From positions 1-64,000 of the IMG/VR virus record IMGVR_UViG_3300017991_000003: a DNA stretch of 64,000 nt. One strand, 5' to 3'. A program made the position numbers and the translations under genes. Positions 11,612 through 53,525 of this stretch are shown in pieces. The first letter of the stretch is position 1. Each line of letters begins with the position of its first letter. The DNA is from a virus. The notes under the pieces were generated by a model. That model was not told where the DNA came from, searched no databases, and worked only from the letters and a program-made list of their open reading frames with translations.

Positions 11612-14600
11612 TGCTCGAAGGGCAGCACTTCCGGCAGTTCAAAGAGGCGCTGACTCGGTCGGAGGGCATCGTCAAGGGTATGTTCCCGATCGAGAGCCCC
11701 ACGAAGCGGCTCGAGGTCACGAACCTGCGTTGGACGAACGTAGGCCCGGACGTGGTCTTCGACGTCGAGAAGCAGAAGCAGGCCAAGCTGAAGGAGCAGT
11801 CGATCAACGCTGTTCTGGTCGGTGACGTCACGCTGCGTGAGCTCGGCTCCAAAGGGAAAGTCCTCGACCAGACCAAGCGCTACCCGATCCTCTCGGTGCC
11901 GCACCTGACGATGAACGCTGGCTACATCGTCAACGGCAAAGAGCAGCAGGTCGTCAACCAGTTCCGTCTGCGCCCTGGCATCTACACCCGGTTCACGGGG
12001 GACGACAACGTCGAGGCGTTCCTCAACACCACGGCGATCGGTACTTACAAGATCCTCCTCGACCGCTCTACCGGTGTGATCCGTATGCGGGTCGGCACGG
12101 CCGCACGCACCCCGATCTACTCGGTTCTGATCGCGGCTGGGCTGACTGATGCCGAGATCAAGACACTGCTGGGGACGGAGCTCTACGCGGAGAACAAGCG
12201 GGCGGCCAAGCCGGATCAGGACATCCCCAAGCTCCTGAAGCGGATGCGCCCGTACCTCAACCAGCCGGCGGAGCTGGGCGAGAAGTCAAAGCTCGTGCGT
12301 CAGTATCTGGAGTCGAAGCCCCTCGACCCCGCCGTGAACAAGGTCACGGTGGGCGAGGGTCTCGACCGCATCGACCGCAATGCCCTCGTGGCGGCGATCA
12401 AGAAGGTCCTCAAGCTGTCTAAGGGTGAGGCAGAGCCCGACGACACGGAGAGCCTTGCCTTCAAGTACATCCTCTCGATCGAGGACTTCGTGCCCGAGCG
12501 GCTCCAGAAGGCGGCCGACGGGCTCAAGTACAAGATCCAGGGCGACATGCGCCGCCGGGATGAGATCCGCTTGATCCTCCCGCCCAACCGCCTGAGCCAG
12601 CCGGTGGAGTCCTTTTTCACCACCTCGGAGTTCACGCGCTACTCGAGCCAGCACAACCCGCTGGACATGGCGGCGATCTCGAGCCTGACCACCACCATGG
12701 GTGATGGCGGGATCTCGAGCTCCCATGCGATCACCGACGAGGTGCGTACGATCCACCCGAGCCACTACGGTCTCCTGGATCCCATGCACACCCCGGAGGG
12801 GTGTTGCAGCGCTGACATGGAGGTCATGACGGATCAAGGCTGGGTTGCGTGGCCCGACGTAGACCGGACCACTCGGTTTGCTTGCCTAGACGCTGATCAA
12901 GGCCTTACCTATCACCGCGCCTCCGAGCTACACGTCTACGACCACGACGGGCCTCTCTACGGGTTCAAGTCGGAGACCCTGGAATACCTGCTGACCCCGA
13001 ATCATCGTCAGTGGGTCCGCCCGATTGAGGATCGATCGACGCGTGGGTATCGGTTTGAGACCGCGGAGGAGATGTACGGTAAACGTCGGCGAGTCCGCAT
13101 CGGCGGGCATTTGGCCTACGAGGGTCAGGCCGTCGATACCTGGCAGCTCCCTGAAATCCCTAAGGGAAGCAACTCGCAGAAGGTTTTCCCGGCCTTTGCT
13201 ATTGAGGACTGGGCTGAGTTCCTTGGCTGGTACCTGAGCGAAGGGAGCAGTCGGGGTTACGTGACTTCGATCACGCAGTATGAGGCTGCGAACCCGGAGA
13301 ATGTGGCTCAGATCGAGGCGCTGTTGACACGCATGCAGGTCGCGTGGAGCCGCAGCTCCAGGAGCTTCTCGATCCCAGGTAAGCAGCTAGTCAGCTACCT
13401 GCGTCAGTTCGGCCACTCCGATACCAAGTACATCCCTAAAGAGGCGTTCGACTTCCCGGCGGCGGCGCGTGAGGCCATGCTCGAGGCGCTAATGCTCGGA
13501 GACGGTCGCAAGGGCAAGGGCCGATGCTCTTGCTACTGCACTACATCTGAGCAGCTCGCCAAGGACGTGCAGCGCTTGGCCTTCGGCCTAGGGGTGTCGA
13601 GCAAAATCACCTTTGAGCCGGATACGCGGGAGGAGCACTACCGCGGGTGCTGGATCGTCCATCTCCACGCGCTCACTGAGCGTCAGGTGCTGCCACAAAT
13701 GCGCGCAGCAGGTAACGGCCAGTTCATCGAGGAATACCAAGGCAAGGTCTACTGCGCCACGGTTCCTGGTGGCCTGCTGTACATCCGTCGAGCCGGCAAG
13801 AGCGGTTTCTGGTCCGGCAATAGCAAGGTGGGCGTGACCGGTCACTTGGCCCTGGGCGCGCGCAAGAAGGGGCAGACCCTCTACGTCCCGGTCTATGACG
13901 CCAAGACGGGCAAGCGCGTGGAGAAGTCGGTTCAAGACCTGGACCAGGCCACCATCGCGTTCCCTGATCAGTACGACAACCTGCCCGACAAGCCGGGCGC
14001 GTCGGTCAAGGGCAAGCCCACGACCAAGCTGAAGAAGGTCAAGGCCCGTAGTCGTAACGAGTTCACGGAGGTGAGTCCGTCGGCTGTGGACTACATCTTC
14101 GTCAGCTCCGACAGCTTCTTCAGCTCGACCACGGCTGCGATTCCCTTCCTCCCCAACAACGACGCCAACCGCGTCCTGATGGGTGACAAGCATATCGAGC
14201 AGTCGGTGAACCTTGAGGACCCCGACGCGCCGATGGTCCAGCACCGCATCCGAGGCCGGGGCTATGAGGAGATGTTCGGGGAGCGCCTAGCCCCCCGGGC
14301 TATCGACCCCAAGACCGGCAAGCCCGTCGGCGGAGAGGTCCTCGAGGTCACCAAGACGCATATCACCATCCGGCCGGATGGCGGCGGCCGTCGACGCATC
14401 AAGGTCCCGATCCACGACCACTACCCGCTCAACAGCCGGACGTTCCTGCACGACGAGCCGGTGGTGAAGAAGGGTGACAAGGTCAAGCCTGGCCAGATCC
14501 TGGCCCGCAACAACTTCACCAAGGACGGAGACCTGGCGGTCGGCAAGAACCTCCGAGTCGCCTACACCGCGTACAAGGGCTACAACTTCGAGGACGGCAT

Positions 14601-17600
14601 CGTCATCTCGGAAGGGGCGGCTAAGAAGTTGACCTCGGTGCACAAGTACGAGGCCCGCGTTGAGAAGGGCAAGGGCATCACGGTCGGTGCAGACGCCTAC
14701 GCTGCCGCCTACCCCTCGGAGCTGGAGCATATCCGCGACCGTGCCCGGCGCTACGACGCTGTGGGTGTTATCAAGAAGGGCCAGCAGGTCGTCAAGGGCG
14801 ATGTCCTGATCCCCGCCATCCAGGAGGTCGAGGCGCATCCCGAGTACGACTACAAGCGTCTGCACCGCAGCGCCGGTCTCCGGCACATGGATATCAGCGA
14901 GACCTGGAACCACGACTTCCCTGGTGAGGTCGTAGACGTGGTCAAGACTCGGACATTCGTGAAGGTCGTGGTCAAGAGCAAGGAACCGATGCAGGTCGGT
15001 GACAAGCTGAGCTCGCGCCACGGCGCCAAGGGCATCGTCGTCAAGATCATCCCTGATGAGGAGATGTACAAGGACGAGGAAGGTGCGACGATCGATATCC
15101 TGCTCAACCCGGCGGGGGTGCCTGGTCGCGTCAACACGGGTCAGATGCTCGAAGCCGCGGCCGGCAAGCTGGCCCGTAAGACGGGCAAGAAGTACTACAC
15201 CGACAACTTCAACGAGAAGGGCAGCACGATCAAGAACCTCCGCAAGGAACTAGCGGGGGCCGGGATCTCCGATGAGGAGACGATCGTCGACCCGAAGACG
15301 GGGCACAAGCTCGAACGCGTCCTCGTCGGCGACACGCACATCTACAAACTGACCCACCAGGTCACGGGCAAGATGAAGGCCCGCGCCTCTGTGGGTGAGC
15401 CCTACTCGGTGGACGAGCAGCCCGTGAAGGGATCAGGGTCAGGTGCCCAGCGCATCGGCATCCTCGACACCTTCAGCCTGCTTTCGGGCGACGCCACGGC
15501 GTTCCTCGAGGATGCCTTCGGCCTCAAGAGCCAGAAGAACGACGAGTACTGGCGTGCCCTCCAGACTGGGCAAACACTGCCGCCTCCGAAGACCCCGTTC
15601 ATCGAGGAGAAGTTCGTGGCCATGCTCATTGGCGCGGGCATCGACCTCAAACAGAAAGGCAGTCGCATCGACGCGGGGCCGCTGACGGATGCTGAGGTTC
15701 TCTCAATGTCCAATGGCGCCATCGAGCGCCCGGTGGCGGTCAAGGCATCGAACCTCAAACCCGAGCGTGGCGGGCTCTTCGATCCCGGCAAGACCGGCGG
15801 TCCTGGCGGCAACTACTGGAACCATATCGATCTAGCCTCTGAGGTCGTGCACCCGCTGATGACCGACGCTGCGGCGTCCGTGGGCGGGTTCAAGACCAAG
15901 AAGGAGATGGACCAGATCATCCAGGGCCTGCTCGCGGTCACCGAGGAGGGCGAGGTCGTGGAGGCAGGCACCGCGGGTGCCGTGGCCGGTGGCTCGGGAG
16001 TGAAGCGCCGACTCGCTACGATCAACGTTCCGAGGGCCATCAAAGAGACCGAGTTGGTGGCGGCGACCGCCAAGGGCGCCAAGCTGGACAAGGCCCACAA
16101 ACGGCTGCGCTACCTGCGCTCGCTTCAAGCCAGTGGCCACTCGGCTGTTGATGCCTACATCAACAAGACCCTCCCGGTCATCCCCGCCAAGTTCCGTCAG
16201 ATCGCTCCGATGCCCGACGGCAGCCTGAGTGTGGCTGACGCCAACCACGGCTACCGAGAGGTCCTTCTCATCAACGAGAAGATCAAGCAGCTGAAGGCTC
16301 TCGGAGTCGACGAGCAGAACCTGCGAGCACTCAACAAGGCTCTGGCGGACGCTACGGCCGGCCTCGTAGGCACGGCGCCTCCGATCAGCCGAGGCAAGGT
16401 CTTCCGCGGCTTCGTCAGTCAGATCCACGGCCCGACGCCTAAGTCGGGTCTGGCGCAGTCGAAGCTCATGGGACGCAACCAAGACCTGAGCGGCCGGTCG
16501 ACTGTGATCCCCAACCCCAAGCTGGGGATGGACGAGGTCGGTATCCCGGCTGAGATCGCCTACAAGATCTACAAGCCCTTCGTCATCAAGCGTCTCGTCA
16601 CCGCCGGCCACAAGCCGCTAGATGCCCGCTCCATGGTCGAGCAGGGCCACCCGGCCGCCCGTCGTGCGCTCGAGGTGGAGGCTGAAGACCGCCCGGTGCT
16701 GATGAACCGCGCGCCCTCACTGCACAAGTTCAACATCCAGGCCCTCAAGCCCCGGGTGATCGACGGTAAGGCGGTCGAGGTCAACCCGCTCATCGTGAGC
16801 GGCTACAACATGGACTTCGACGGGGATACGGCCGGTCTACACGTTCCGGTCTCTGAAGAGGCCCGGCGCGAGGCTCGTGAGAAGCTGCTCCCGTCGCGCA
16901 ACCTGTTCAGCCCTCGGGAGGAGTTCGTGGTCCATGCCCCGACCAAGGAGACGATCCTCGGGGTGTACCTGATGACTACGCCCAAGGGACTTGCCTCCAA
17001 GTCGTTCTCCTCCGACCAGGAGATGGTCAAGGCATACCAGGCCAAGGAGATCAAGGTCAACGAAGCGGTGAAGGTCCAAGGCGCTGTGACCTGCGCCGGT
17101 CAGGCCATCTTCAACACGGCGCTTCCTATGGATCTGCGCGTGGGTCGTACGTCGGTGACCGGTCCGCGTTTGAGCCAGCTCCTGGTTCGCATCGGTCGGC
17201 AGTTGGGCCCCGACCGGGCCGCTCAAGTGATCTCGAAGATCAAGGACCTAGGCAACCACTACGTGACCGAGGTCGGGTTCTCCGTGAGTCTCCGGGACCT
17301 TGAGCTTGATACGAGCAAGCGGGATCAGATCGTCAACAAGCTCAAACGAGACGCCAAGACCAAGGGGTTCGATGAGGCGGCTGGCGAGGCGCTCGAAGAC
17401 ATCGCAGCGCTGCTGGCGTCGGCAGAGGATAACCGGTTCGTGGAGGCTGGCATCACATCCGGAGCCCTAGGCTCCAAAGGCATCCACCGGATGCTGGCGA
17501 GCACCGTGGCAGTGACGGATCACAAGGGCAAGACGGTCCCGATCCCGGTCGAGAAGTCCTATGCCGAGGGCCACGATCTAGGTACCTACTTGGGTACGAC

Positions 17601-18765
17601 CCCCGGCGCCCGGAAGGGCTTGATCGACAAAGGCCTGAGCGTGGCGGATACGGGCTACTTCAGCCGCATGCTCGTCAACAGCTCGATCGAGAACCAGGTG
17701 ACCGTCGCGGACTGCGGAACCAAGTCGGGCCAGGATCTGCCGCTCAACTCCCAGGAGCTCGCGCACCGCTACGGCGCCGAGGGCCGCTACCGCAACGTCT
17801 TGATCACCTCGGACATCGCCCGCCGCCTGCGCTCCCTAGGCCAGAAAACGGTCAAGGTCCGTAGCCCTCTGACTTGTCAGGCGCAGAAGGGCGTCTGTCA
17901 GAAGTGCTTCGGCCTACTCGAGGATGGCAAACCGCCTCGCATCGGTTATCACGTCGGTGCTCTGGCCGGCCAGACCCTGGGTGAGGTGGCTACCCAGCTG
18001 ACCCTGCGCAGCTTCCACACTGGTGGCGCTGTTGGTGGGCCCGACCTGGGTTTTGAGCGCATCCGTCAGATCATGGAGATGCCTCAAAGCATCCAAGGCA
18101 AAGCCATCCTGAGCGAGGCCACCGGCCAGGTGACGCGCATCGACACAGCGCCGGCGGGCGGTAGTTACGTCTACGTCGGCTCCGAGAAGCACTTCATCCC
18201 CAAGGAGCTGGGGGTAGCGGTGAGTCGAGGCCAGCGCGTGAAGGCGGGGGATCAGCTGAGCAAGTCGGGTGTGATCAAGCCTCAGGAGCTGCTAGATACG
18301 ACAGGGGACATCAATCGTGTCCGTACCCATCTGATCAACGAGCTGGATGCTAACTACAGAGCGGCCGGCAAGAAGGTCAACCGCCGGATCTTCGAGACGG
18401 TGGTCAAGCCTCTTACTGACCGTGCGACTGTGACGGACGTCGGAGACGCCGGCCGCCATTTCCCGGTACATGCCGGGGAGGTCATGCCTGTCAACCAGAT
18501 CGAGGAGATGAACCGCAAGCTCAAGCAGCGCCGTCTTCGCCCGATCCAGTTCGAGCCTATGATCATGGGTATCAAGCAGGCCCCGTTCCAGAGCGAGGAC
18601 TTCGTGGGAACGCTCACCCATGAGAAGCTCAAGCGGACCCTCACCGAGGCCCCTAGCCTGGGTAAAGCCACGGACCTTGTGCGCGGCCACCCGATGGCCC
18701 GCCTGGGTCTCACCAACCTCCGATCCATCGAAGCCATCAAACGACCTCAAGGGGTGAAGCGATGA
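11611..18765 (+). CDS. fused beta-beta' multisubunit DNA-dependent RNA polymerase, intein-containing
   Basis: Beta motifs: SQHNPLD...HPSHYG...HTPEG, IPFLPNNDANRVLMG, GDKLSSRHGAKGIVV (14998..15033), VNTGQMLE, GAQRIGILDTFSLL. Beta' motifs in the same frame: NHIDLASEVVHPL, NMDFDGD (about 16807..16827), PSLHKFNIQA. Beta' N-terminal Zn-ribbon appears absent. Confidence 0.85.
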   Translation: MLEGQHFRQFKEALTRSEGIVKGMFPIESPTKRLEVTNLRWTNVGPDVVFDVEKQKQAKLKEQSINAVLVGDVTLRELGSKGKVLDQTKRYPILSVPHLTMNAGYIVNGKEQQVVNQFRLRPGIYTRFTGDDNVEAFLNTTAIGTYKILLDRSTGVIRMRVGTAARTPIYSVLIAAGLTDAEIKTLLGTELYAENKRAAKPDQDIPKLLKRMRPYLNQPAELGEKSKLVRQYLESKPLDPAVNKVTVGEGLDRIDRNALVAAIKKVLKLSKGEAEPDDTESLAFKYILSIEDFVPERLQKAADGLKYKIQGDMRRRDEIRLILPPNRLSQPVESFFTTSEFTRYSSQHNPLDMAAISSLTTTMGDGGISSSHAITDEVRTIHPSHYGLLDPMHTPEGCCSADMEVMTDQGWVAWPDVDRTTRFACLDADQGLTYHRASELHVYDHDGPLYGFKSETLEYLLTPNHRQWVRPIEDRSTRGYRFETAEEMYGKRRRVRIGGHLAYEGQAVDTWQLPEIPKGSNSQKVFPAFAIEDWAEFLGWYLSEGSSRGYVTSITQYEAANPENVAQIEALLTRMQVAWSRSSRSFSIPGKQLVSYLRQFGHSDTKYIPKEAFDFPAAAREAMLEALMLGDGRKGKGRCSCYCTTSEQLAKDVQRLAFGLGVSSKITFEPDTREEHYRGCWIVHLHALTERQVLPQMRAAGNGQFIEEYQGKVYCATVPGGLLYIRRAGKSGFWSGNSKVGVTGHLALGARKKGQTLYVPVYDAKTGKRVEKSVQDLDQATIAFPDQYDNLPDKPGASVKGKPTTKLKKVKARSRNEFTEVSPSAVDYIFVSSDSFFSSTTAAIPFLPNNDANRVLMGDKHIEQSVNLEDPDAPMVQHRIRGRGYEEMFGERLAPRAIDPKTGKPVGGEVLEVTKTHITIRPDGGGRRRIKVPIHDHYPLNSRTFLHDEPVVKKGDKVKPGQILARNNFTKDGDLAVGKNLRVAYTAYKGYNFEDGIVISEGAAKKLTSVHKYEARVEKGKGITVGADAYAAAYPSELEHIRDRARRYDAVGVIKKGQQVVKGDVLIPAIQEVEAHPEYDYKRLHRSAGLRHMDISETWNHDFPGEVVDVVKTRTFVKVVVKSKEPMQVGDKLSSRHGAKGIVVKIIPDEEMYKDEEGATIDILLNPAGVPGRVNTGQMLEAAAGKLARKTGKKYYTDNFNEKGSTIKNLRKELAGAGISDEETIVDPKTGHKLERVLVGDTHIYKLTHQVTGKMKARASVGEPYSVDEQPVKGSGSGAQRIGILDTFSLLSGDATAFLEDAFGLKSQKNDEYWRALQTGQTLPPPKTPFIEEKFVAMLIGAGIDLKQKGSRIDAGPLTDAEVLSMSNGAIERPVAVKASNLKPERGGLFDPGKTGGPGGNYWNHIDLASEVVHPLMTDAAASVGGFKTKKEMDQIIQGLLAVTEEGEVVEAGTAGAVAGGSGVKRRLATINVPRAIKETELVAATAKGAKLDKAHKRLRYLRSLQASGHSAVDAYINKTLPVIPAKFRQIAPMPDGSLSVADANHGYREVLLINEKIKQLKALGVDEQNLRALNKALADATAGLVGTAPPISRGKVFRGFVSQIHGPTPKSGLAQSKLMGRNQDLSGRSTVIPNPKLGMDEVGIPAEIAYKIYKPFVIKRLVTAGHKPLDARSMVEQGHPAARRALEVEAEDRPVLMNRAPSLHKFNIQALKPRVIDGKAVEVNPLIVSGYNMDFDGDTAGLHVPVSEEARREAREKLLPSRNLFSPREEFVVHAPTKETILGVYLMTTPKGLASKSFSSDQEMVKAYQAKEIKVNEAVKVQGAVTCAGQAIFNTALPMDLRVGRTSVTGPRLSQLLVRIGRQLGPDRAAQVISKIKDLGNHYVTEVGFSVSLRDLELDTSKRDQIVNKLKRDAKTKGFDEAAGEALEDIAALLASAEDNRFVEAGITSGALGSKGIHRMLASTVAVTDHKGKTVPIPVEKSYAEGHDLGTYLGTTPGARKGLIDKGLSVADTGYFSRMLVNSSIENQVTVADCGTKSGQDLPLNSQELAHRYGAEGRYRNVLITSDIARRLRSLGQKTVKVRSPLTCQAQKGVCQKCFGLLEDGKPPRIGYHVGALAGQTLGEVATQLTLRSFHTGGAVGGPDLGFERIRQIMEMPQSIQGKAILSEATGQVTRIDTAPAGGSYVYVGSEKHFIPKELGVAVSRGQRVKAGDQLSKSGVIKPQELLDTTGDINRVRTHLINELDANYRAAGKKVNRRIFETVVKPLTDRATVTDVGDAGRHFPVHAGEVMPVNQIEEMNRKLKQRRLRPIQFEPMIMGIKQAPFQSEDFVGTLTHEKLKRTLTEAPSLGKATDLVRGHPMARLGLTNLRSIEAIKRPQGVKR
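12802..13821 (+). mobile_element. intein with LAGLIDADG homing-endonuclease domain inserted after the conserved TPEG of the beta module
   Basis: Begins CCSADMEVMTDQG (block A-like), TPNH (block B-like), two LAGLIDADG-like helices (LGWYLSEGS, EALMLGDGRKG), ends ...FWSGN followed by Ser; flanks (HTPEG / SKVGV...IPFLPNNDANR) restore beta-subunit colinearity. Boundaries within a few codons. Confidence 0.65.
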
Positions 18766-44753: not shown

Positions 44754-44775
44754 GGCACTGGCTCCCAGTGTCAGA
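44754..44775. promoter_or_regulatory. 22-nt conserved element TGGCACTGGCTCCCAGTGTCAG (copy 2), palindromic core ACTGG-N3-CCAGT
   Basis: Exact duplicate of 26116..26137; overlaps sigma-factor stop codon. Confidence 0.4.
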
Positions 44776-45619
44776 GATTGGGATCGATGTCCTCGAGCAG
44801 CACCCACAGCTCTCGAAGCCCCTCGTTCTCGATCTGCCTCACACGCTCCCGAGTCCGCCGGTAGAAGCGTGCGAGCTCCCCATAGGGGGTCGGGTTCTCG
44901 TGCCCGAACCCGTAGTGCCGGCGGATGATGTCCTCAGCCTCCGGCTTCAGCTGCGCCAGGGCCCAGTTCAAGAGGTCCCGGTTCTCCTGATTGATGACCC
45001 GATCGAGCATCGCCGGGGCCGGTCCTAGCTGAACCCCCTGCGCTGTGTCCTGGGTGAGCCGGCCGCACGCCTCGGTGATCTCGGTGTCCAGGGTCACCAA
45101 CCGACTATCCCGAGCGTGCCTGTACTTCCGGATCTTGTCCGGGTCCCAGCCGAGCTCCTCGAAGATCTCCTCCTCGTCCGGGTAGTAGCCGTTGGTCTTC
45201 AACATCCGGTACGCCTTGGTCTGGTAGTCGGTGACCAGGGACCGGTGGCGAATAGGCTTGGCTGAGAGGTTGCGGTACTCCCGACGGACCTCGGCGTCGA
45301 TCCACCAGACGGCGTAGGTACTGAACTTGACGTGGCTCTTCGTGCCCTTGACGACCCGGTCAAGGTCGAAATCCCTGAGCGCCTTCATAAGCCCCACGAA
45401 CCCCGCGGAGATCATGTCGTGATAGCGCGCGTCCTTGGCCTCGACGAAGCGCTGCACTCGTCGGATTACCAGGCGGACATTGTGTTCGACCAGCCGCTGA
45501 GCTGCGGCATCATCCCCCTCGCGTAGCGCTTTGACGAGCAGCTCGCGTTCTTCCTCCTTCGACAGGACTGGGTGATCAGCTGCCTTGTGTAGGGCGATCT
45601 CGTCGAAGGACCAGTCCAC
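44771..45619 (-). CDS. sigma-70-family RNA polymerase sigma factor
   Basis: Region 2: LVEHNVRLVIRRVQRF...GFVGLMKALRDFD...KFSTYAVWWI; region 4 helix-turn-helix: NPTPYGELARFYRRTRERVRQIENEGLREL. Confidence 0.75.
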   Translation of the reverse strand: MDWSFDEIALHKAADHPVLSKEEERELLVKALREGDDAAAQRLVEHNVRLVIRRVQRFVEAKDARYHDMISAGFVGLMKALRDFDLDRVVKGTKSHVKFSTYAVWWIDAEVRREYRNLSAKPIRHRSLVTDYQTKAYRMLKTNGYYPDEEEIFEELGWDPDKIRKYRHARDSRLVTLDTEITEACGRLTQDTAQGVQLGPAPAMLDRVINQENRDLLNWALAQLKPEAEDIIRRHYGFGHENPTPYGELARFYRRTRERVRQIENEGLRELWVLLEDIDPNL

Positions 45620-46680: not shown

Positions 46681-47208
46681 TCAGTCTTCGCTAGCAGCTT
46701 GTTGTCGACGGACCTCCGCAGATGCAGCGTAGCAGAGCACCATCGCATCCGAGATGTCCTCGTGGGCTTTGGGCACACCATCAGGATAGCCCAAATCGGC
46801 CAAGTCATCGGAAAACCGTTCATTCATTCGAGCCCGCGCCCCGTCCTTATCCTTGGCCTTGACGCGACTGCGGGCCGTCTTAGCTGTGATCAGGACCGGC
46901 TCGTAACCCGCTCGGGCGACCTCCGACATCACGGCCCCGATAGCCATGGCGACCTTGCCCATGGATGATAGGTTCCTGGCGTGCTTGTTGAACTTCAAGT
47001 CCTCGATGATCACGTGATCCGGGTTCCACTTGGCGAGCACCTCCCGCACCCGCTTCCCTAGCTGCCCGATCCGAGCAGCGAAGGTGTCCTTGGCGCGCAA
47101 CCGAAGGAGCTCGACATGCAGCATCTCCCACTCATCGCTCTCATCCATCCGCATCAAGGCCACCCCTGTTTTGAGGCTGCCGCAGTCGAATCCCATTACA
47201 ACGGTCAT
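46681..47208 (-). CDS. RuvC-like Holliday junction resolvase
   Basis: GFDCGSLKTGVAL (cf. RuvC GIDPGSRVTGYGV), HVIIEDL, DAMVLCYA acidic catalytic positions. Confidence 0.6.
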   Translation of the reverse strand: MTVVMGFDCGSLKTGVALMRMDESDEWEMLHVELLRLRAKDTFAARIGQLGKRVREVLAKWNPDHVIIEDLKFNKHARNLSSMGKVAMAIGAVMSEVARAGYEPVLITAKTARSRVKAKDKDGARARMNERFSDDLADLGYPDGVPKAHEDISDAMVLCYAASAEVRRQQAASED

Positions 47209-47609
47209 TCACGCCCCCCGGCTCCTCGGCCGCGGTTACGGATGGCCCGCTGAATGGCCTCTCGCCGGCTCGGCGGGATCTTGTGCAGGGGGAGCTCGAC
47301 CGGAGCTTCGGGGACCTTCTGGAAGGGCAGGTCACCGAAGATCTTGATCAGGGATCCAAGAACGTCTTGAGCATTCATCGTGTCGAGACGCCCATCGACC
47401 ATGGAGATCGGCAGCTCGAAGGTCATCGGCTGATCGAACGGGGTCAAGTAGTGCATTCGGAGCCCCATGTGCTCCTCATCACCTTCGGGGGCGATGTTCG
47501 TCACGTGACACCAGATGAACCAGCCGGTCACGTGGATACCGGAGGCGCCGAATCGAATGTCCTTGGAGCTGAAGGTCCAGAAAGGCTTAGGAGCGTTGGG
47601 GTTATCCAT
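47205..47609 (-). CDS. hypothetical protein (134 aa)
   Basis: ATGA overlap with RuvC-like gene. Confidence 0.5.
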   Translation of the reverse strand: MDNPNAPKPFWTFSSKDIRFGASGIHVTGWFIWCHVTNIAPEGDEEHMGLRMHYLTPFDQPMTFELPISMVDGRLDTMNAQDVLGSLIKIFGDLPFQKVPEAPVELPLHKIPPSRREAIQRAIRNRGRGAGGRE

Positions 47610-47611
47610 AG

Positions 47612-47654
47612 CTAAAAGAGAGGAAGGGGCGAGGCCGGCACCCCGAAGGGCGCC
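47612..47654 (-). terminator. terminator-like hairpin plus U-tract on - strand
   Basis: GGCaCCC-CGAA-GGGcGCC stem (47636..47654), then TCTCTTTTAGC on - strand; shares AGCTAAAAG with the 43105 terminator. Confidence 0.4.
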
Positions 47655-47668
47655 GACCTCTGGGGGAC

Positions 47669-49387
47669 TCAGATGATCGCGTTCCAGTCGACGATGACAC
47701 CGGCCTCGTCGAGCAAGTCGTAGAACCAGGTCACGACGTGGACGTAAGCACCTAGCGGGTCCTTGGGGTGGCGCTTCTGGGCCTCCTCGCGCTTGGCACC
47801 GAACTCGTCGGTCTTGGCCAGCTTGTGCTTCTTGCAGGTCTGGCCGAGCAGGCTGAGCAGGGCACGCTGCTGAGTGGAGTTGAGCTTCGAGTAGTCAGGG
47901 CGCACGTTCTCGTCGAACGGCTCCTCTTCTTCCTCTTCTTCCTCTTCCTCCTCCTCGCCAGGCTCCTCCTCGTCCTCCTCCTCAAGATCGTCGAGCTCCT
48001 CATCGCTGGGCTCTTCTTCGTCGAGGTCCTCCTCGTCGAGCTCCTCGTCTTCTTCCTCGTCAGGCTCCTCCTCGTCGAGGTCCTCGTCTTCTTCCTCCTC
48101 CTCGTCGAGGTCCTCCTCGTCGTCTAGCTCCTCCTCGAGCTCTTCTTCTTCGAGCTCCTCGAGCTCCTCGAGCTCCTCCTCTTCTTCCTCCACATCAGGG
48201 GCGGAGGCAGCAACCGGAGCCTCCCGCTTGCCGATCATGTCGTCAGGCGGGATAGGGGTGTGAAGAGGGCCGGAGACAGCGATAGGGAACGCGCGGATCG
48301 TGTCCTCGGGAACGCCGAGCGTATCCGCGGCCTCCGCGAGGCTGGTGGCCAGCACGTAGCGCAGCGTGTCGGAGCCGTCCTCGTCTTGGCTGTAGGCCTG
48401 GTACACGGCATGGACCGACGGGAGCCCGATATGCTCTTGCATGTAGTTGGGGTCACCATCGGGCGCGACGAAGACAGCGCTGACGCCCGGGCAGCAACGC
48501 TCAGCCGCTTCTTTGAGGCGCATCAGGCCCACGGCCCGCCACGCATCGTCAGCGCCTTCGGTCAGGTGCGAGGACGCGGCCACGAGGGCCTCGATCATCA
48601 CATCACCGTCGGTCGGCCAGCGGTCAGAGTCGTCAGTACCGGACGCGGCCCGCTTGAGCAGCTCCTGGTAGGAGTAGTAGAGGTCCAGCTGCGGCTGGGT
48701 GAGTCGGAGCTTGAGCTCGCGGTACTTGGCCTCGCCGGGCTCGAGCCCCTCGTCCTCCTCGTCGTTCATGTCCTGGATCGCCTGCTGCACCCGGCGCTTG
48801 AGGTCTGCGGAGCGCAGCGCGTGCGGGTGACCCAGGGGCTCGCAGAAGGGCAGCCACTCGGAGATGTTGTCCTCGTGGATAGCGCCGGCGCGGACGCCCG
48901 GGCTCAGCTCGACAAGCCGGTCCCAGACCACGTGGCGCAGGACGGCGGGGTTCAGGCTCAGCGACAGCAGCATGGCCCACTGGCCTGCTAGCTGGTTGGC
49001 CTTGGCCGGGTTCATGTTGAGCCGCATGTCCGCGACCTGCTCGAAGCTCTCGGCGGCCGGCAGATCACCGACAGGAGCCGCGACCTCGATCCACGCACCT
49101 TCTCGCAGGTTGAACAGGTGGCAGGCCAGCTCAGCAGTCTGAGCGCCTCGGGCCTGCTGGAGCTCGACACACCGGTCCAGACGCTTGATCGCCGGGAGCT
49201 TGCCGGTGCCGGCGAAGGGGGCTCGCTGCCCCTGTAGGAGGTTCTGGGTTGCGTACTCGGCGCGCTCTTGAGCCTCTTCGAGGGCCACCAGTGCGGCGTT
49301 CTCGGAGCCCGGCTGCGGTTGGGTAGTCGGCGCAGCAGCCGCTTTCTTCTTCGTGGCCTTCTTGGCGGCCTTCTTTTTCTTAGCCAT
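47669..49387 (-). CDS. protein with Lys-rich N-terminal tail and ~100-residue poly-acidic (E/D/L) C-terminal tract
   Basis: ATG at 49387 (MAKKKKAAKKATKKKAAAA); acidic tract encoded at about 47910..48195. Confidence 0.6.
   Translation of the reverse strand: MAKKKKAAKKATKKKAAAAPTTQPQPGSENAALVALEEAQERAEYATQNLLQGQRAPFAGTGKLPAIKRLDRCVELQQARGAQTAELACHLFNLREGAWIEVAAPVGDLPAAESFEQVADMRLNMNPAKANQLAGQWAMLLSLSLNPAVLRHVVWDRLVELSPGVRAGAIHEDNISEWLPFCEPLGHPHALRSADLKRRVQQAIQDMNDEEDEGLEPGEAKYRELKLRLTQPQLDLYYSYQELLKRAASGTDDSDRWPTDGDVMIEALVAASSHLTEGADDAWRAVGLMRLKEAAERCCPGVSAVFVAPDGDPNYMQEHIGLPSVHAVYQAYSQDEDGSDTLRYVLATSLAEAADTLGVPEDTIRAFPIAVSGPLHTPIPPDDMIGKREAPVAASAPDVEEEEEELEELEELEEEELEEELDDEEDLDEEEEEDEDLDEEEPDEEEDEELDEEDLDEEEPSDEELDDLEEEDEEEPGEEEEEEEEEEEEPFDENVRPDYSKLNSTQQRALLSLLGQTCKKHKLAKTDEFGAKREEAQKRHPKDPLGAYVHVVTWFYDLLDEAGVIVDWNAII
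47910..48195. repeat. GAG/CTC-type low-complexity coding repeat (poly-Glu/Asp/Leu)
   Basis: Repeated CCTCGTCGAGGTCCTC units on + strand. Confidence 0.7.
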
Positions 49388-50429
49388 GGGCGGGGGTCTT
49401 CTTCTTCTTGGTTCTTTTGTAGGGGAAGCAGTCAAGGCGGTTGCGGCATCGCTTGGCCTTGGCGGTGTTGCGGCTAGAGCAGGCCTTCGGGCCAGCTAGG
49501 GGCTGTCCAAGCTCTACGAGGCGATGGACAGAGTCGATGTAGGGGTCGACGACCATGGGCAGGAAGTCGGGGTCATAGGCGATCTCGTAGGCCCGGTCGG
49601 CAAGTCGGTCCCTGTCAAGATATAGCAACGAAGTGCCCTCACAGAGGTCAGGATCTAGCGGAAAGATTCCTTGACGCCCCTGCTCGACCAAGATGGCCGG
49701 GTAGAGCTTGCCTTGGTAGGTGTCCTTCTCCAGAGGGAGCGGGCCCTGCCGGGGCTTGAGCACGAAGGTTCCGGGCTCTTTGCCCCGGACGCGCGACATA
49801 CTGTCGAACTGGTCCCGCTCCTTGCTCTTCATCTCCAGCACTCGCCAGTGCCCGGTGGGCTTGATCCAGATACCGTCAGCACGGCCGCGGATCATCCACG
49901 CGTCACCGCGATTCTTGGGGTCGGGCCGACGAATGCGGATCTCCTCGTAGCGCCATCTGACACGCTCCCGGGCTAGGACCCGATCGCAGTTGTTCTCGTG
50001 GACTACCCCATCCGCATCACGGTAGGCGACGGTGTTGGTGCACACCTCCTCGGGCCTGAACCCTTCGACGACCTGGTGACAGCTCATACACCTCCACAGG
50101 CCCCAGAGGCGCCCGACGTCGCCTGTGATCTCAGGTAGGATCACGGACTGGAAGTGGTCATGAACAGCGTGCCCAGCTGCGAACAAGCGTAGCGCCTGGG
50201 GACTAAAGCCCTGAGCGTCGCCCCACATATCGTGGAGGCGCTTGAAAGCGTCTTGGACCATACACCCGTTGCAGAGGCTGCTTGGGTTGAAGGCTCTGGA
50301 GACATACCCCTCACGCTCTTCTCGACGGAGAAGCGCCTGGTCGATGGCCGGCGTCCAAGACTGATCGGCCTCGACCCTCGTCGTCATCTTGCAGATGAAG
50401 TCGACGATGTCTTGTGTGAAGGTGTTCAC
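49380..50429 (-). CDS. putative PD-(D/E)xK nuclease with Cys cluster
   Basis: GRADGIWI...WRVLEMKSK (D...E-x-K); CNGC and CMSC upstream. Confidence 0.35.
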   Translation of the reverse strand: MNTFTQDIVDFICKMTTRVEADQSWTPAIDQALLRREEREGYVSRAFNPSSLCNGCMVQDAFKRLHDMWGDAQGFSPQALRLFAAGHAVHDHFQSVILPEITGDVGRLWGLWRCMSCHQVVEGFRPEEVCTNTVAYRDADGVVHENNCDRVLARERVRWRYEEIRIRRPDPKNRGDAWMIRGRADGIWIKPTGHWRVLEMKSKERDQFDSMSRVRGKEPGTFVLKPRQGPLPLEKDTYQGKLYPAILVEQGRQGIFPLDPDLCEGTSLLYLDRDRLADRAYEIAYDPDFLPMVVDPYIDSVHRLVELGQPLAGPKACSSRNTAKAKRCRNRLDCFPYKRTKKKKTPAHG

Positions 50430-50667: not shown

Positions 50668-51395
50668 GCGTAGTGTCTCTGTAGGTGGATGAAGGCGAGG
50701 GCTGCGGCTTCGGCAGCGTCGTACTCTTTGTCGATGTACAACCAGTTCTTGAAGCGGTTGTTGAAGGCTTGTCGATCCGGGTTTGACATGGCCCGCGCCA
50801 TCTCGGCCTCAAGCCTCGGGTCCCGAGCGGTCGGATCTAGGTTGTCGCGGCCAGGGCCTAGTAGCCCCTCCAAAGCTATGTAGAGGTGCCTCACGTGCCG
50901 GTGCTGCCCTAGGTCTGTGAAGTGGTCCTCAGGGCCTTGGTGCCCGTGAGATCCGGTCATCACGATCACCTGATCGAAGGACTCGTCTACCAAGGATCTG
51001 TAGGCCGTCCAGATGGCGCGAACCATGGTAGGGCCTCCTTTCATGAACCCTTGATAGATCAACGTGGTCAAGATTGATCGGTCGCGCAGAGCAACAGGGA
51101 TCTCACCTCCAGCTGATACAAACCCGGCCCACTCCTGCACCTGCACCGCTGTCTGTGCCATCCCTGCGATGAACAGAGCGGCGCTGGCCTGAGTACAAGG
51201 GATCTGCGACTCACCCGTACCCCCCGTCGCCTGGCCGTGGAGCACTAGCTCCCGGAGGCCTTGGATGCTATCCCCCGGTTCCCGGAAGACTCGAGCCTTC
51301 CACCCCCCGACGTTGTTGTTGATGTCGTCGCAGAGGGATTGAGCTAGGGTGCTCTTCCCGCTGCCGTCAGGGCCTTCGAGGATGATCTGGTGCAT
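50652..51395 (-). CDS. dTMP/dNMP kinase-like P-loop kinase
   Basis: N-terminal ILEGPDGSGKSTLA matches thymidylate-kinase-type P-loop. Confidence 0.45.
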   Translation of the reverse strand: MHQIILEGPDGSGKSTLAQSLCDDINNNVGGWKARVFREPGDSIQGLRELVLHGQATGGTGESQIPCTQASAALFIAGMAQTAVQVQEWAGFVSAGGEIPVALRDRSILTTLIYQGFMKGGPTMVRAIWTAYRSLVDESFDQVIVMTGSHGHQGPEDHFTDLGQHRHVRHLYIALEGLLGPGRDNLDPTARDPRLEAEMARAMSNPDRQAFNNRFKNWLYIDKEYDAAEAAALAFIHLQRHYAWNKS

Positions 51396-51952
51396 CAGGT
51401 GGTCTGGGCGATTACGCGTTGGAGAAGGGAGCCATGAGTCACGACCAGCTCGTGCTTGGCGGTCAGGGGATCCAGCTTGGCCTTGAAGGTCAAGCCAAGG
51501 GACCCGAGCATCCCAGTGCGCTGTCGCTCCAAGTCCTCTTGGATGACCTCTACGGGGATGCGGGTCTCCTTGGTGGTGATGTCGAAGTACCGAAACGGCC
51601 CGTCAACGAACTGCTCGAGCTCCTCAGTCATGGGCATGATCAGGAGATCAGCGGGGAAACCCTCAAACACGCGATACGTGTTGTGGTCCGTGAAGTGGTA
51701 GGCGAGGGCGATGTTCGGGCGCGCTAGCTTGCGCGCGTCTTGCACCGCCTTCTCCCACCACCGAGGCTGGAACCGGAAGTCGGTCCCTGTTCTCGACTTG
51801 GCCTCGACAAACCACCCGTAAGGGGTGCCGAGGTCTCCTCGGAAGAACGAGCCGCAGCCAGATCCGGGGACCCGCTGCAAGCCGGTCTCTCGCATCAGGC
51901 GAAGCTCGTGCGCGTCACCCGTCCTCTTGTTCGAGGCCGGCCTCGAGCGCAT
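51395..51952 (-). CDS. hypothetical protein, possible PD-(D/E)xK-type nuclease
   Basis: GDLGTPYGWFVEAKSR motif; start uncertain (51952 or 51895; track ORF to 52075 overlaps RecA-like gene). Confidence 0.3.
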   Translation of the reverse strand: MRSRPASNKRTGDAHELRLMRETGLQRVPGSGCGSFFRGDLGTPYGWFVEAKSRTGTDFRFQPRWWEKAVQDARKLARPNIALAYHFTDHNTYRVFEGFPADLLIMPMTEELEQFVDGPFRYFDITTKETRIPVEVIQEDLERQRTGMLGSLGLTFKAKLDPLTAKHELVVTHGSLLQRVIAQTT

Positions 51953-53525
51953 CGAGGGGGTCACCTCCCTCTGCTTCTTCTGAATCTTCGGCAGCCCCAG
52001 CGGCTGGCTGATGTCCTTTGAGTCGGTCATGGGCTTCGTGAATGAGATCCTGGAGAGGGTCGTCGAAAGGCCCATAGAGATGGGCCTCTGCGTCGAGGTG
52101 GCCTCGGAAGGTCCGCGGCATGATTGCGGCAGCCAGCGGATAGCGCAGGCGATAACCGATGTCGGGCCGGCTCAGGAAGGCCTTGATGTCCGCGATCTTG
52201 GTGAAGGTGCGGCCGAGGATCTCATACCCCCGCGAGGTCTTCTTGAACCACCTGTCATCAGGCGGCAGCTCCCAAGCGCCCTCAGATAGGGCTTTCAGGA
52301 GCTCAAACACGCGCGCACCCTCGTCGGTCTCGCCGGCTTCGTAGTGGACACGGTCAAACAGACGATCCTTGAGGAACAGCCGAGCCTGGGCGCTAGCGTT
52401 GGTGCCGCCCCCGGACGCCTTGTCCTTCTTCATCGTCATCGTCATCTCCGCCATGGCGGCGGGCTCACGGTAGCCGCCGTCCCACGGGTTGTAGCGGGTG
52501 CGGATCTCCATGTTCTGCATGAGCGCGTACTTGAGGGCGTTACCGCCCGACGCGATCTTGGAGGGACCGCCGTAGCCCCCGGGGCCCGACTGGATGTTGG
52601 CGCGCCACTGGTTGGTCTGGATGAACGTGGGCATCACGCCCGACTGGTTCCAGGCCTCGTTTTGCGCGCTGATCAGCTTCGGGTACAGGCGGGACAGCTC
52701 ACGAGCCCGGGACGCGGTCTGCTTACGACCCGCCAGGTCCTCGTCAATCGCAGCCATGGCCACACTGTCGAGGATGATCAGATCGGCAGCGCCGTTCTTG
52801 ATCAGGTGGGAAGAGAGGATCTCGACCTGGTTCAAGGACGTGATGCGGGCCACAGCTACTGTCGAATCCGGGCTGATGAGTAGGCCCTCTTCGACCTCCT
52901 CGTACTCAGCCATCGGATCGCTCATGTCCACACGATCCGCGATCTTGAACCCCCAGGACTGTGCCCATAGCGGGTCGAAGTCACCCTCGACATCGATGAA
53001 GAGGACGGTCGACACATCGTTGGCACCGCAGCCGCAGCGGATCACGTTATCCCGCTCACCCAGGTCATCATGGAAGGTGAGGATCGGAGTCATGCAGCGC
53101 CGGCAAGTGCGCTGGAAGGAGCCGGCCAGTAGGTAGCACATGAGCGACTTGCCCACATGCTCCGGGCCAATGATCTGCGTCCGGGTGCCGATGGCCATGC
53201 GGATGTTCATGTCCATCTCGACCAGTCCCGTGAACAGGAGCCGGCGGCGGAACTCAGCTGCGGCCTGCGTCGCTCGCCAAGAACCCGTGGGCTGCTTGTT
53301 GAGCTCGACTGTCGCAGACTTCATCCCGTCGCTGAACCGAGCGCTGGTGCGTGTGTCGCGCGGGCTCTTCACTCCGGCCGTCAGCGCCCGCTTCGGAGCG
53401 TCGTCCTTGGCTGCGGCCTTCTTGGTCCGCTTCTTGGCCTTCTTCTTGGTCGCCTTCTTCTTGGTGGCCTTCTTGGTCACCTTCTTTGTGGCTTTTTTGG
53501 CGACCTTCTTCTTCTTGGCCGCCAT
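51915..53525 (-). CDS. RecA/UvsX-family recombinase with Lys-rich N-tail and Cys-cluster insertion
   Basis: KKKKVAKKATKK tail; Walker A GPEHVGKS; LIILDSVAMAAIDEDL (cf. RecA IVVDSVAAL); CRRC...CGC; acidic C-terminus. Confidence 0.5.
   Translation of the reverse strand: MAAKKKKVAKKATKKVTKKATKKKATKKKAKKRTKKAAAKDDAPKRALTAGVKSPRDTRTSARFSDGMKSATVELNKQPTGSWRATQAAAEFRRRLLFTGLVEMDMNIRMAIGTRTQIIGPEHVGKSLMCYLLAGSFQRTCRRCMTPILTFHDDLGERDNVIRCGCGANDVSTVLFIDVEGDFDPLWAQSWGFKIADRVDMSDPMAEYEEVEEGLLISPDSTVAVARITSLNQVEILSSHLIKNGAADLIILDSVAMAAIDEDLAGRKQTASRARELSRLYPKLISAQNEAWNQSGVMPTFIQTNQWRANIQSGPGGYGGPSKIASGGNALKYALMQNMEIRTRYNPWDGGYREPAAMAEMTMTMKKDKASGGGTNASAQARLFLKDRLFDRVHYEAGETDEGARVFELLKALSEGAWELPPDDRWFKKTSRGYEILGRTFTKIADIKAFLSRPDIGYRLRYPLAAAIMPRTFRGHLDAEAHLYGPFDDPLQDLIHEAHDRLKGHQPAAGAAEDSEEAEGGDPLDALEAGLEQEDG

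What the first reader, a model, noticed from the sequence alone, without database searches (positions are those of the whole stretch)
47669..49387. Protein combining a histone-H1-like Lys-rich tail with a ~100-residue poly-acidic tract
Basic N-terminus MAKKKKAAKKATKKK and an extreme E/D/L tract near the C-terminus, encoded by a GAG/CTC repeat at about 47910..48195. Such charge-segregated proteins can act as DNA mimics, nucleoid remodellers or chaperones, and the repeat is a likely site of length polymorphism.
Basis: partly seen in the sequence, partly recalled or inferred. Interest (0 to 1): 0.55.

Follow-up and report, generated by a model that had tools for sequence, protein, structure and literature searches.

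The report
Phage recombination-module protein with polyacidic linker
A real phage gene encodes a protein with a short lysine-rich head, a conserved helical body of unknown fold, a floppy stretch of about 90 acidic residues and a small tail domain; the charged parts vary between relatives, while the body and its fixed place between a DNA-cutting exonuclease and a junction resolvase are what is conserved.

Summary
Window 47669..49387 (minus strand) is an intact 572-aa ORF. It starts MAKKKKAAKKATKKK and has a 92-residue tract (aa 398-489) that is 82% Asp/Glu.

It is a real gene of an uncultured phage of about 175 kb. It belongs to an unannotated family known only from metagenomes, with 63 representatives. 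The family always sits in the block Cas4-like exonuclease, this gene, a 134-aa ORF, RuvC.

- **Conserved parts:** a roughly 360-aa helical core (AF2 pLDDT above 90, no significant match to any solved structure) and an 80-aa three-helix C-terminal domain.
- **Variable parts:** the acidic tract is a disordered linker. The nearest relatives have a shorter acidic, a neutral or a basic one. Across the family it runs from 3 to 198 aa.
- **Recurrence:** acidic linkers and Lys-rich N-tails each appear in 15 of 56 members, in phages of 37-67% GC.
- **Length polymorphism:** two otherwise identical assemblies differ only by one 9-nt GAAGAAGAG unit in the tract.

My best reading (moderate confidence) is a non-enzymatic DNA-associated adaptor of the phage recombination and repair machinery, with a charge-tunable flexible tether. 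A dedicated DNA mimic or histone-like function is not supported. Interest is moderate.

The parts
47669..49387 (-). Whole gene: 572 codons plus the stop at 47669-47671
   Evidence: ORF list, sequence and translation. An identical or near-identical protein is called on independent contigs.
49331..49387 (-). Lys/Ala-rich N-terminal tail (aa 1-19, MAKKKKAAKKATKKKAAAA), net charge +9
   Evidence: It has low to moderate pLDDT. Comparable tails occur in 15 of 56 family members, but the tail is absent in close relative P0004 and vestigial in P0002.
48233..49318 (-). Conserved, mostly helical core domain (aa 24-385), itself acidic (net -26, pI 4.6)
48953..49051 (-). Candidate helix-turn-helix (aa 113-145, ESFEQVADMRLNMNPAKANQLAGQW...). 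Family motif: F-x-E-Y-x-E-x-x-L-x-I-S-x-x-K-A-x-x-L-x-x-x-W
47903..48232 (-). Hypervariable disordered linker (aa 386-495)
   Evidence: pLDDT is below 50 apart from a weak helix at 403-420. Alignment occupancy is low. Across the family the linker runs from 3 to 198 aa and from net -76 to +7.
47921..48196 (-). Polyacidic tract (aa 398-489, 75 of 92 residues D/E) encoded by an in-frame GAG/GAA/GAC/CTC repeat
47922..47953 (-). Near-perfect 9-nt repeat (GAAGAAGAG on the coding strand, 3.6 copies) encoding the final Glu run; site of the observed copy-number difference
   Evidence: TRF reports period 9 with 95% matches. L007 lacks exactly one unit, while L011 matches the window.
47672..47902 (-). 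C-terminal three-helix domain (aa 496-572, pI 8.8)
47631..47660 (-). 13-bp GC-rich hairpin with a UUCG loop, immediately after the stop codon
   Evidence: RNA fold -30.9 kcal/mol, z = -2.5. The terminator scan did not call it, because the U-run lies about 14 nt further downstream. Relatives also have an intergenic gap of about 60 nt here.
49380..50429 (-). Upstream partner gene: Cas4-like PD-(D/E)XK exonuclease (349 aa). Its stop overlaps the target's start by 8 nt
   Evidence: PHROG hits: phrog_2506 exonuclease 2e-11 and Cas4-domain families. Homologues lie directly upstream of the family member in 9 of 10 loci.
47205..47609 (-). Downstream conserved 134-aa ORF of unknown function, with a conserved H-K-I-P-P-S-R-R motif
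   Evidence: Homologues sit downstream of the target in 8 loci. No family or PDB match.
46681..47208 (-). RuvC-like Holliday-junction resolvase, closing the conserved block
   Evidence: Pfam RuvC 1.7e-9 and phrog_159 4.7e-18. Conserved downstream in relatives.

Best explanation
The gene encodes a modular, non-enzymatic accessory protein of the phage's recombination, repair and replication module. A conserved helical core carries a probable helix-turn-helix and a few invariant basic residues. A flexible linker of freely evolving length and charge joins it to a small three-helix C-terminal domain that most likely docks onto a partner. The co-translated Cas4-like exonuclease is the leading candidate partner; other proteins of the block are alternatives. 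In this phage the linker has expanded, through in-frame slippage of GAR/CTC codons, into a polyacidic tract of about 90 residues. The N-terminus has gained a Lys-rich tail of 15-19 residues.

The likely roles of the charged parts are as follows. The Lys tail gives non-specific affinity for nucleic acid. The polyacidic linker acts as an extended, self-repelling tether and probably also as an intramolecular competitor that masks the Lys tail and the basic patches until a partner or DNA is engaged. Acidic tails work this way in T4 gp32, T7 gp2.5, SSB, HMGB1 and the RNA polymerase delta subunit.

**Shown here:** the gene is real; the domain layout; the pattern of conservation; disorder of the linker; synteny; the repeat polymorphism.

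**Inferred:** DNA binding; partner docking; electrostatic autoregulation.
For: - **Family and conservation.** There are 63 representatives at E of 1e-3 or better. Core and C-terminal domain are conserved; the linker is not.
- **Structure.** The AF2 model is confident for the core and C-terminal domain and disordered for aa 387-490.
- **No catalytic signature.** Conserved positions are hydrophobic, Gly or Pro, plus Lys/Arg at positions 80, 129, 157 and 201. There is no conserved acidic, His or Cys constellation.
- **Synteny.** The block exonuclease, target, 134-aa ORF, RuvC is kept in 9 of 10 loci whose targets are only 22-52% identical. It sits next to RecA/UvsX-like, ResIII and UvrD helicase genes.
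- **Translational coupling.** The target's start overlaps, or lies within 10 nt of, the exonuclease stop in most loci.
- **Selection acts on the protein.** Acidic linkers recur at the same position in phages of 37-67% GC, with different codons and motifs.
- **Slippage is ongoing.** A 9-nt unit indel is the only difference in 21.7 kb between two assemblies.
Against: - The core is itself strongly acidic (net -26; family median -8.5). That is unusual for a DNA-binding domain and fits a pure protein-protein scaffold equally well.
- Profile searches at sequence level gave no ParB or HTH family hit in any of 56 members.
- Lys-rich tails and acidic linkers are not significantly associated across the family (Fisher p = 0.08, Spearman rho 0.06). 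Linker charge does not correlate with the charge of the other parts. This gives no support to a charge-compensation model.
- Members with a 3-aa linker show that the tether is dispensable for the core function.
- Physical interaction with the exonuclease was not tested.
Confidence: 0.42

Rival explanations
1. One reading: the polyacidic tract is a DNA mimic or decoy. The protein would be an anti-defence or host-takeover factor that titrates host DNA-binding proteins such as nucleoid proteins, RecBCD/AddAB or restriction enzymes. The Lys tail would target it to the nucleoid.
For: - The tract has extreme negative charge (75 of 92 residues D/E) and the whole protein has pI 4.2.
- Acidic tracts recur in 15 of 56 members irrespective of genome GC, which suggests selection for negative charge.
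- The gene sits beside a recombination exonuclease, the place where lambda keeps gam (general knowledge).
- The linker is hypervariable, as expected for arms-race proteins.
Against: - The closest relatives replace the tract with a neutral or a basic linker while keeping core, C-terminal domain and synteny.
- Some members have almost no linker.
- The tract is predicted to be disordered rather than a rigid mimic of B-DNA.
- The conserved parts are the core and the C-terminal domain.
- A single Pfam Anti-RecBCD_p2 hit in one member at E 0.018 is noise.
Confidence: 0.13
2. The protein is a transcription accessory factor for the phage's own RNA polymerase and sigma factor. It would work like the Gram-positive RNA polymerase delta subunit (RpoE), whose Lys tract plus polyacidic disordered region displaces nucleic acids from RNA polymerase.
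For: - The phage encodes a 2384-aa beta/beta'-like RNA polymerase protein.
- It also encodes a sigma-70-family factor, 3-4 genes downstream of the target in every long locus.
- A K-tract combined with an acidic disordered region matches the charge logic of delta (my own knowledge of B. subtilis RpoE).
- There is a weak Sigma70_r4_2 hit at aa 341-365, E 0.07.
Against: - None of the 56 members matches HARE-HTH or delta.
- In the model the 341-365 segment is strand-helix-strand, not an HTH.
- The tightest and most constant neighbours are the exonuclease, the 134-aa ORF and RuvC, not sigma.
- The charged parts that make the analogy are not conserved.
Confidence: 0.12
3. The protein is a replication initiator or replisome organiser of the lambda O type: an N-terminal origin-binding domain, a linker encoded by the origin itself, and a C-terminal domain that recruits the helicase or its loader. 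The purine-rich repeat DNA would form part of the origin.
For: - It has the two-domain-plus-linker layout.
- The gene lies in the replication and recombination module near helicases.
- The cumulative GC-skew minimum falls at about 46-48 kb.
- The tract is a 276-nt polypurine/polypyrimidine stretch.
Against: - There are no iterons or other repeats in or around the gene apart from the coding GAR repeat.
- Relatives with a neutral linker have no repeats in the linker region.
- Acidic tracts occur with unrelated DNA sequences in phages of 37% to 67% GC.
- The GC-skew minimum lies a few kb from the switch of gene orientation at about 43-44 kb, so transcription bias may account for it.
Confidence: 0.08
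4. The charged segments have no function of their own. The tract is a neutral, slippage-driven low-complexity expansion tolerated in a linker whose only requirement is to be flexible. The Lys-rich start is a by-product of the AAG-rich overlap with the upstream gene's Lys-rich C-terminus.
For: - Linker length runs from 3 to 198 aa and its charge can be of either sign.
- A repeat indel separates otherwise identical genomes.
- The exonuclease ends in KRTKKKKTPAHG, encoded just upstream of and overlapping the target's start.
- Tail and tract are not statistically coupled.
Against: - 71% of linkers are net negative, 32% reach -10 or lower, and longer linkers are more negative (rho -0.46, p = 3e-4).
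- Acidity recurs in AT-rich and GC-rich phages with different codons, which argues for a protein-level bias.
- Lys-rich N-tails of 20-45 aa in other members extend far beyond any gene overlap.
Confidence: 0.2

Closest known systems
phrog_17202 (PHROGs v4, function unknown)
   Same: 28 of 56 family members match this PHROG, best E 2.9e-12. The family has therefore already been catalogued as a cluster of viral proteins.
   Different: The window protein itself does not reach E 0.01 against it. The PHROG carries no function. No member was found in 50,697 GenBank phage records by tblastn.
ParB/Spo0J and KorB (HTH DNA-binding domain, flexible linker, small C-terminal domain)
Lambda Red-beta and RecT-type partners of phage exonucleases
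   Different: The core is helical and has no Rad52-like beta-beta-beta-alpha annealing fold. There are no RecT, Erf or Red-beta family hits. The phage also has a RecA/UvsX-like recombinase. The bundle similarity is generic.
Acidic-tail autoregulated nucleic-acid-binding proteins (T4 gp32, T7 gp2.5, E. coli SSB, HMGB1, B. subtilis RNA polymerase delta subunit)
   Same: A basic segment and a long disordered acidic segment share one polypeptide. In the known cases the acidic part competes with nucleic acid and recruits partners (my own knowledge). This is the closest functional analogy for the charged parts.
   Different: There is no OB fold, HMG box or HARE-HTH. Here the acidic part is an internal linker followed by a folded domain, not a terminal tail. 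It is not conserved among close relatives.
Linker histone H1 and bacterial Hc1- or AlgP-type Lys/Ala-rich proteins
   Same: The Lys/Ala-rich composition of the first 15-19 residues.
   Different: The segment is very short, there is no winged-helix globular domain and no family hit. The protein as a whole has pI 4.2.
Phage DNA-mimic proteins (Ocr, ArdA, Gam, Arn)
   Same: Very high density of negative charge, encoded by a phage.
   Different: Classical mimics are folded, with carboxylates arranged like the DNA backbone. This tract is predicted to be disordered, is variable and is dispensable within the family. No structural match.

Membership tests
Linker histone H1/H5 | Globular winged-helix (GH1/GH5) domain | tested here: not met
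Linker histone H1/H5 | Long Lys/Ala/Pro-rich tail of about 100 aa | tested here: not met
   Only 15-19 residues are Lys/Ala-rich. The resemblance is in composition only.
ParB/KorB | ParB N-terminal (ParBc, CTP-binding) domain | tested here: not met
   No Pfam or NCBIfam hit in any member.
ParB/KorB | HTH DNA-binding domain fold | tested here: inconclusive
Red-beta/RecT/Erf single-strand annealing proteins | Rad52-like annealing core; family HMM match | tested here: not met
Red-beta/RecT/Erf single-strand annealing proteins | Gene adjacent to its partner exonuclease | tested here: met
   The exonuclease homologue is directly upstream in 9 of 10 loci.
SSB, gp32 or gp2.5 type | OB-fold ssDNA-binding core | tested here: not met
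   The AF2 secondary structure is almost all helical. No SSB family hits.
RNA polymerase delta subunit (RpoE) | N-terminal HARE-HTH domain | tested here: not met
   No Pfam hit in 56 members.
RNA polymerase delta subunit (RpoE) | Binding to RNA polymerase | not testable with these tools
   Needs co-purification or complex prediction.
Folded DNA-mimic proteins (Ocr, ArdA, Gam) | Rigid folded scaffold displaying DNA-like charge | tested here: not met
   Tract pLDDT is below 50. No fold match. The tract is absent in close homologues.
phrog_17202 | HMM match | tested here: inconclusive
   28 of 56 homologues match, but the window protein does not at E of 0.01 or better. The link is transitive, through the profile search.

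The most novel reading that the evidence does not exclude
The conserved 360-aa core is a new fold that serves as the dedicated partner of the Cas4-like exonuclease in a widespread, uncultured lineage of large phages that carry their own RNA polymerase. It would take the place that Red-beta, RecT or UvsY-type mediators hold elsewhere. The linker would be a charge-tunable autoinhibitory element that evolves rapidly by codon slippage and sets how tightly the protein engages DNA or its partners.
Probability: 0.15. Interest if true: 0.65.

Novelty: new variant of a known kind. Interest (0 to 1): 0.38.

Why it matters
If the adaptor model holds, this family would be a previously unrecognised core component of recombination-dependent replication or repair. 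It occurs in a broad lineage of uncultured phages of about 145-190 kb, with GC from 37% to 67%. It would also be a natural series for asking how the length and charge of a disordered linker tune a DNA-transaction protein, since net charge runs from -76 to +7 on one scaffold. The 9-nt repeat is a ready strain-typing marker for this phage. By itself, though, a low-complexity acidic linker in a hypothetical phage protein is not rare, and no mechanism has been demonstrated.

Tried and rejected
- **GenBank phage records.** tblastn of the window protein and of P0010, P0008 and P0020, and of the exonuclease, found nothing. Megablast of 20 kb found nothing. The terminase is 30% identical or less to that of any cultured phage.
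- **Family libraries.** Pfam, PHROGs and NCBIfam on the protein, and on all 56 members, returned only phrog_17202 (function unknown) and noise.
- **PDB by sequence.** Profiles of the whole family (A2, A3) and of the HTH-like sub-domain (A4) hit only low-complexity or coiled-coil noise: RSP9, nucleoplasmin, stathmin, TPR designs.
- **First AF2 run.** With 4 sequences the model was poor (pLDDT 46) and was discarded. The second run, with 56 sequences, was used.
- **Fold searches.** Foldseek against PDB and BFVD gave nothing at E of 1e-3 or better. The afdb50 library was unavailable.
- **Alignment-based homologue searches.** The metagenome scan returned only one locus that was already known.
- **In-gene origin of replication.** Rejected, because there are no iterons and relatives with a neutral linker have no repeats in the linker.
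- **HTH at aa 341-365.** The weak Sigma70_r4_2 hit was rejected because the model shows strand-helix-strand there.
- **Charge compensation.** No significant correlation was found between the tail, core or C-terminal domain and the linker.
- **The 134-aa downstream ORF.** No match anywhere.
- **Cluster look-ups.** Every member examined is metagenomic and either unnamed or called 'hypothetical protein'.
Full report
**1. The observation**

The minus strand of window 47669..49387 carries an uninterrupted 572-codon ORF.

- **N-terminus.** It begins MAKKKKAAKKATKKK, with 9 Lys in 15 residues. The binomial tail against the Lys frequency of the rest of the protein is 1e-10.
- **Acidic tract.** Residues 398-489 (window 47921..48196) hold 75 Asp/Glu in 92 positions, against 14% elsewhere in the protein (tail 7e-47). 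The remaining residues are mainly Leu and Pro.
- **Rank in the window.** This is the most acidic 30-residue stretch of any reading frame in the 64-kb window.
- **DNA repeat.** The tract is encoded by an imperfect, always in-frame GAG/GAA/GAC/CTC repeat with periods of 9-54 nt. The coding strand is 78% purine.
- **Start codon.** The ATG at 49387 is the plausible start, not the TTG at 49435. It overlaps the stop of the upstream gene (ATGGCTAA), and homologues begin at the same MAK... position.
- **Frame integrity.** A conserved C-terminal domain follows the tract in the same frame here and in relatives, so there is no frame error.

**2. Where the window comes from**

The window is part of a phage genome.

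- It encodes a large terminase (phrog_675, 2.9e-64) and a 2384-aa protein with RNA polymerase beta/beta'-type matches.
- On the minus strand lies a replication and recombination module. In order it holds a UvrD-like helicase, a ResIII helicase, a RecA/UvsX-like recombinase, a RusA-like resolvase, a thymidylate-kinase-like P-loop protein, a Cas4-like PD-(D/E)XK exonuclease, the target, a 134-aa ORF, RuvC and, further on, a sigma-70-family factor.
- An ENA contig of 174,660 bp and an IMG/VR contig of 91,577 bp carry the same sequence.
- Nothing similar is present among 50,697 GenBank phage records at the DNA level, and the terminase is 30% identical or less to that of any cultured phage.

This is an uncultured lineage.

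**3. Homologues and what is conserved**

A word-indexed search with the N-terminal 398 residues found only four proteins.

| Protein | Length | Identity to the query (aa 1-398) | Linker | N-terminal tail |
|---|---|---|---|---|
| P0001 | 569 aa | 100% | as the window, with 9 Glu in the last run instead of 12 | as the window |
| P0002 | 507 aa | 56% | about 45-aa acidic | only MAKK |
| P0003 | 511 aa | 55% | neutral, rich in Thr, Val and Pro | MDKKKKKKNK |
| P0004 | 533 aa | 58% | Lys/Ala-rich and basic | none |

In the alignment of these five sequences, residues about 25-380 and 494-572 are conserved. The segment between them is not.

An exhaustive profile search of 1.84 billion representatives found 63 family members at E of 1e-3 or better, 47 of them at 1e-10 or better. 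An alignment of 56 of them (A3) shows the following.

- The core is present in nearly all members. Conserved positions are mainly hydrophobic, Gly or Pro. A few basic positions are also kept: Lys/Arg in 84% of members at position 80, 95% at 129, 100% at 157 and 84% at 201.
- No catalytic-looking constellation is conserved.
- The linker ranges from 3 to 198 residues and from net charge -76 (this protein, the extreme) to +7.
- 71% of linkers are net negative, and longer linkers are more negative (rho -0.46, p = 3e-4).
- Lys/Arg-rich N-tails occur in 15 of 56 members, acidic tracts in 15 of 56, and both together in 7. The two are not significantly associated (Fisher p = 0.08).
- Acidic linkers occur at the same position in phages whose gene GC ranges from 37% to 67%, with different codons and motifs. 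The bias towards acidity therefore acts on the protein, not on the DNA.
- The core itself is acidic (net -26 here, family median -8.5). The whole protein has pI 4.2, while the N-tail has pI 10.9 and the C-terminal domain pI 8.8.

**4. Structure**

With the 56-sequence alignment, AlphaFold2 gives a confident model: mean pLDDT 83, with the core mostly 90-98 and the C-terminal domain 85-97. Residues 387-490 fall below 50, apart from a weakly supported helix at 403-420.

- The core is almost entirely helical. It has one small strand-strand-helix-strand element at 327-368.
- The C-terminal domain is a three-helix bundle.
- Foldseek against the PDB and against BFVD found nothing at E of 1e-3 or better.
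- The best-conserved sequence stretch is F-x-E-Y-x-E-x-x-L-x-I-S-x-x-K-A-x-x-L-x-x-x-W. It lies on helices 115-121 and 127-142 and reads like a helix-turn-helix with a Ser N-cap and a Lys at the start of the recognition helix. This is an inference.
- Pfam, NCBIfam and PDB sequence profiles give no support for it.
- The weak Sigma70_r4_2 hit at 341-365 falls on a strand-helix-strand element and was dismissed.

**5. Genomic context across the family**

Ten loci were examined. Their targets are 22-52% identical to the window protein.

- A homologue of the Cas4-like exonuclease (27-63% identical) lies directly upstream in nine of them. In two of these nine, one gene is inserted between them (ThyX in L009, a 155-aa gene in L015).
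- The 134-aa ORF, RuvC or both lie downstream in nine.
- A sigma-70-like gene follows a few genes later wherever the contig is long enough.
- The target's start overlaps the exonuclease stop, or lies within 10 nt of it, in most loci. This suggests translational coupling.
- A 13-bp GC hairpin with a UUCG loop follows the target's stop, and relatives keep an intergenic gap of about 60 nt there.

**6. Repeat polymorphism**

Over 21.7 kb the ENA contig (L007) is identical to the window except for one 9-nt gap. The gap removes exactly one GAAGAAGAG unit of the near-perfect 9-nt repeat at 47922..47953, giving 9 Glu instead of 12. The IMG/VR contig carries the 12-Glu allele. Either this is a true copy-number variant between populations, or the assemblers resolved the repeat differently. 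Mapping reads would decide. One low-coverage relative contig has a frameshift just after its acidic linker (P0075 and P0076), most simply an assembly error.

**7. Interpretation**

Selection keeps the helical core, the C-terminal bundle and the position between the exonuclease and RuvC.

My best explanation (confidence about 0.4) is a non-enzymatic, probably DNA-associated adaptor of the phage recombination and repair machinery.

- The core would bind DNA or a large partner.
- The C-terminal bundle would dock onto a partner. The co-translated exonuclease is the first candidate.
- The linker would be a flexible tether whose negative charge keeps it extended. It may also compete intramolecularly with nucleic acid for the Lys tail and the basic patches, as acidic tails do in gp32, gp2.5, SSB, HMGB1 and RNA polymerase delta (established knowledge for those proteins, inference here).

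**8. Rivals**

- **A dedicated DNA mimic or anti-defence decoy** (confidence about 0.13). The close relatives with neutral or basic linkers, and the predicted disorder of the tract, weaken this reading.
- **A delta-like transcription factor for the phage RNA polymerase and sigma** (about 0.12). There is no HARE-HTH, and the tightest neighbours are recombination genes.
- **A lambda-O-like initiator with an origin inside the gene** (about 0.08). No iterons were found, and the relative with a neutral linker has no repeats in that region.
- **A purely neutral low-complexity expansion** (about 0.2). This is compatible with the adaptor model for the conserved parts, but it conflicts with the recurrent acidity across GC contents.

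**9. Novelty and score**

The family is uncharacterised and known only from metagenomes. All cluster members examined are unnamed or called 'hypothetical protein'. Its only catalogue entry is phrog_17202, function unknown. It fails every membership test I could run for H1, ParB, annealing proteins, SSBs, delta and folded DNA mimics.

In architecture it resembles known modular DNA-transaction proteins with disordered linkers, so I class it as a new variant of a known kind. Interest is moderate (0.38). The charge pattern itself is not remarkable for a phage protein. The conserved core with no recognisable fold, fixed in an exonuclease-RuvC block across a broad uncultured phage lineage, does merit follow-up.

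Noticed in passing
window 11611..18765 (+): A 2384-aa ORF matches several phage 'RNA polymerase beta subunit' PHROGs and two large families of unknown function (phrog_25354 at 1.7e-115, phrog_24349 at 4.9e-76). It looks like a single-chain beta/beta'-type RNA polymerase in a phage of about 175 kb that also encodes a sigma-70-family factor.
   Followed up: no
window 44771..45619 (-): A 282-aa sigma-70-family factor (RpoS/RpoD-like; TIGR02394 at 4e-29, well below the trusted cutoffs). It is conserved a few genes downstream of the target in every long related locus.
   Followed up: partly
window 33159..33830 (+): A second protein with a polyacidic C-terminal tail (...EAEEEEELEGLEEPEEEAADEDEDDEEEEDLEG...). 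The tail is preceded by a Pro-rich spacer and a segment that reads like a SAP/HeH (Rho-N-like) motif, MGYNDLRAKAKRHDVSAGGGRDAIIERLLALEG.
   Followed up: no
window 47631..47660 (-): A 13-bp GC-rich hairpin with a UUCG tetraloop sits directly after the target's stop codon (-30.9 kcal/mol, z -2.5). A CUCUCUUUU run follows only about 14 nt later, so it is not a canonical intrinsic terminator.
   Followed up: partly
window 46681..47208 (-) and 51395..52075 (-): The module encodes two different junction resolvases, a RuvC-like one and a RusA-like one, in addition to a RecA/UvsX-like recombinase.
   Followed up: no
window 47205..47609 (-): A 134-aa ORF is conserved right after the target across the family, with an invariant PPS-R core in an H-K-I-P-P-S-R-R motif. 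It has no match in Pfam, PHROGs, NCBIfam or the PDB.
   Followed up: partly
window 49380..50429 (-): The Cas4-like exonuclease has no Pfam hit and only PHROG-level matches. It ends in a Cys-rich segment (C-x10-C-x5-C) followed by a Lys-rich tail, KRTKKKKTPAHG, which is conserved in distant homologues.
   Followed up: partly
P0075 and P0076, on one 2131-bp ENA contig (relatives of P0002): The homologous gene is split into 436-aa and 80-aa ORFs by a frameshift just after its acidic linker. This is probably an assembly or sequencing error next to the repeat.
   Followed up: partly
window 1054..6228 (+): A 1724-aa ORF with no PHROG match at E of 1e-4 or better.
   Followed up: no
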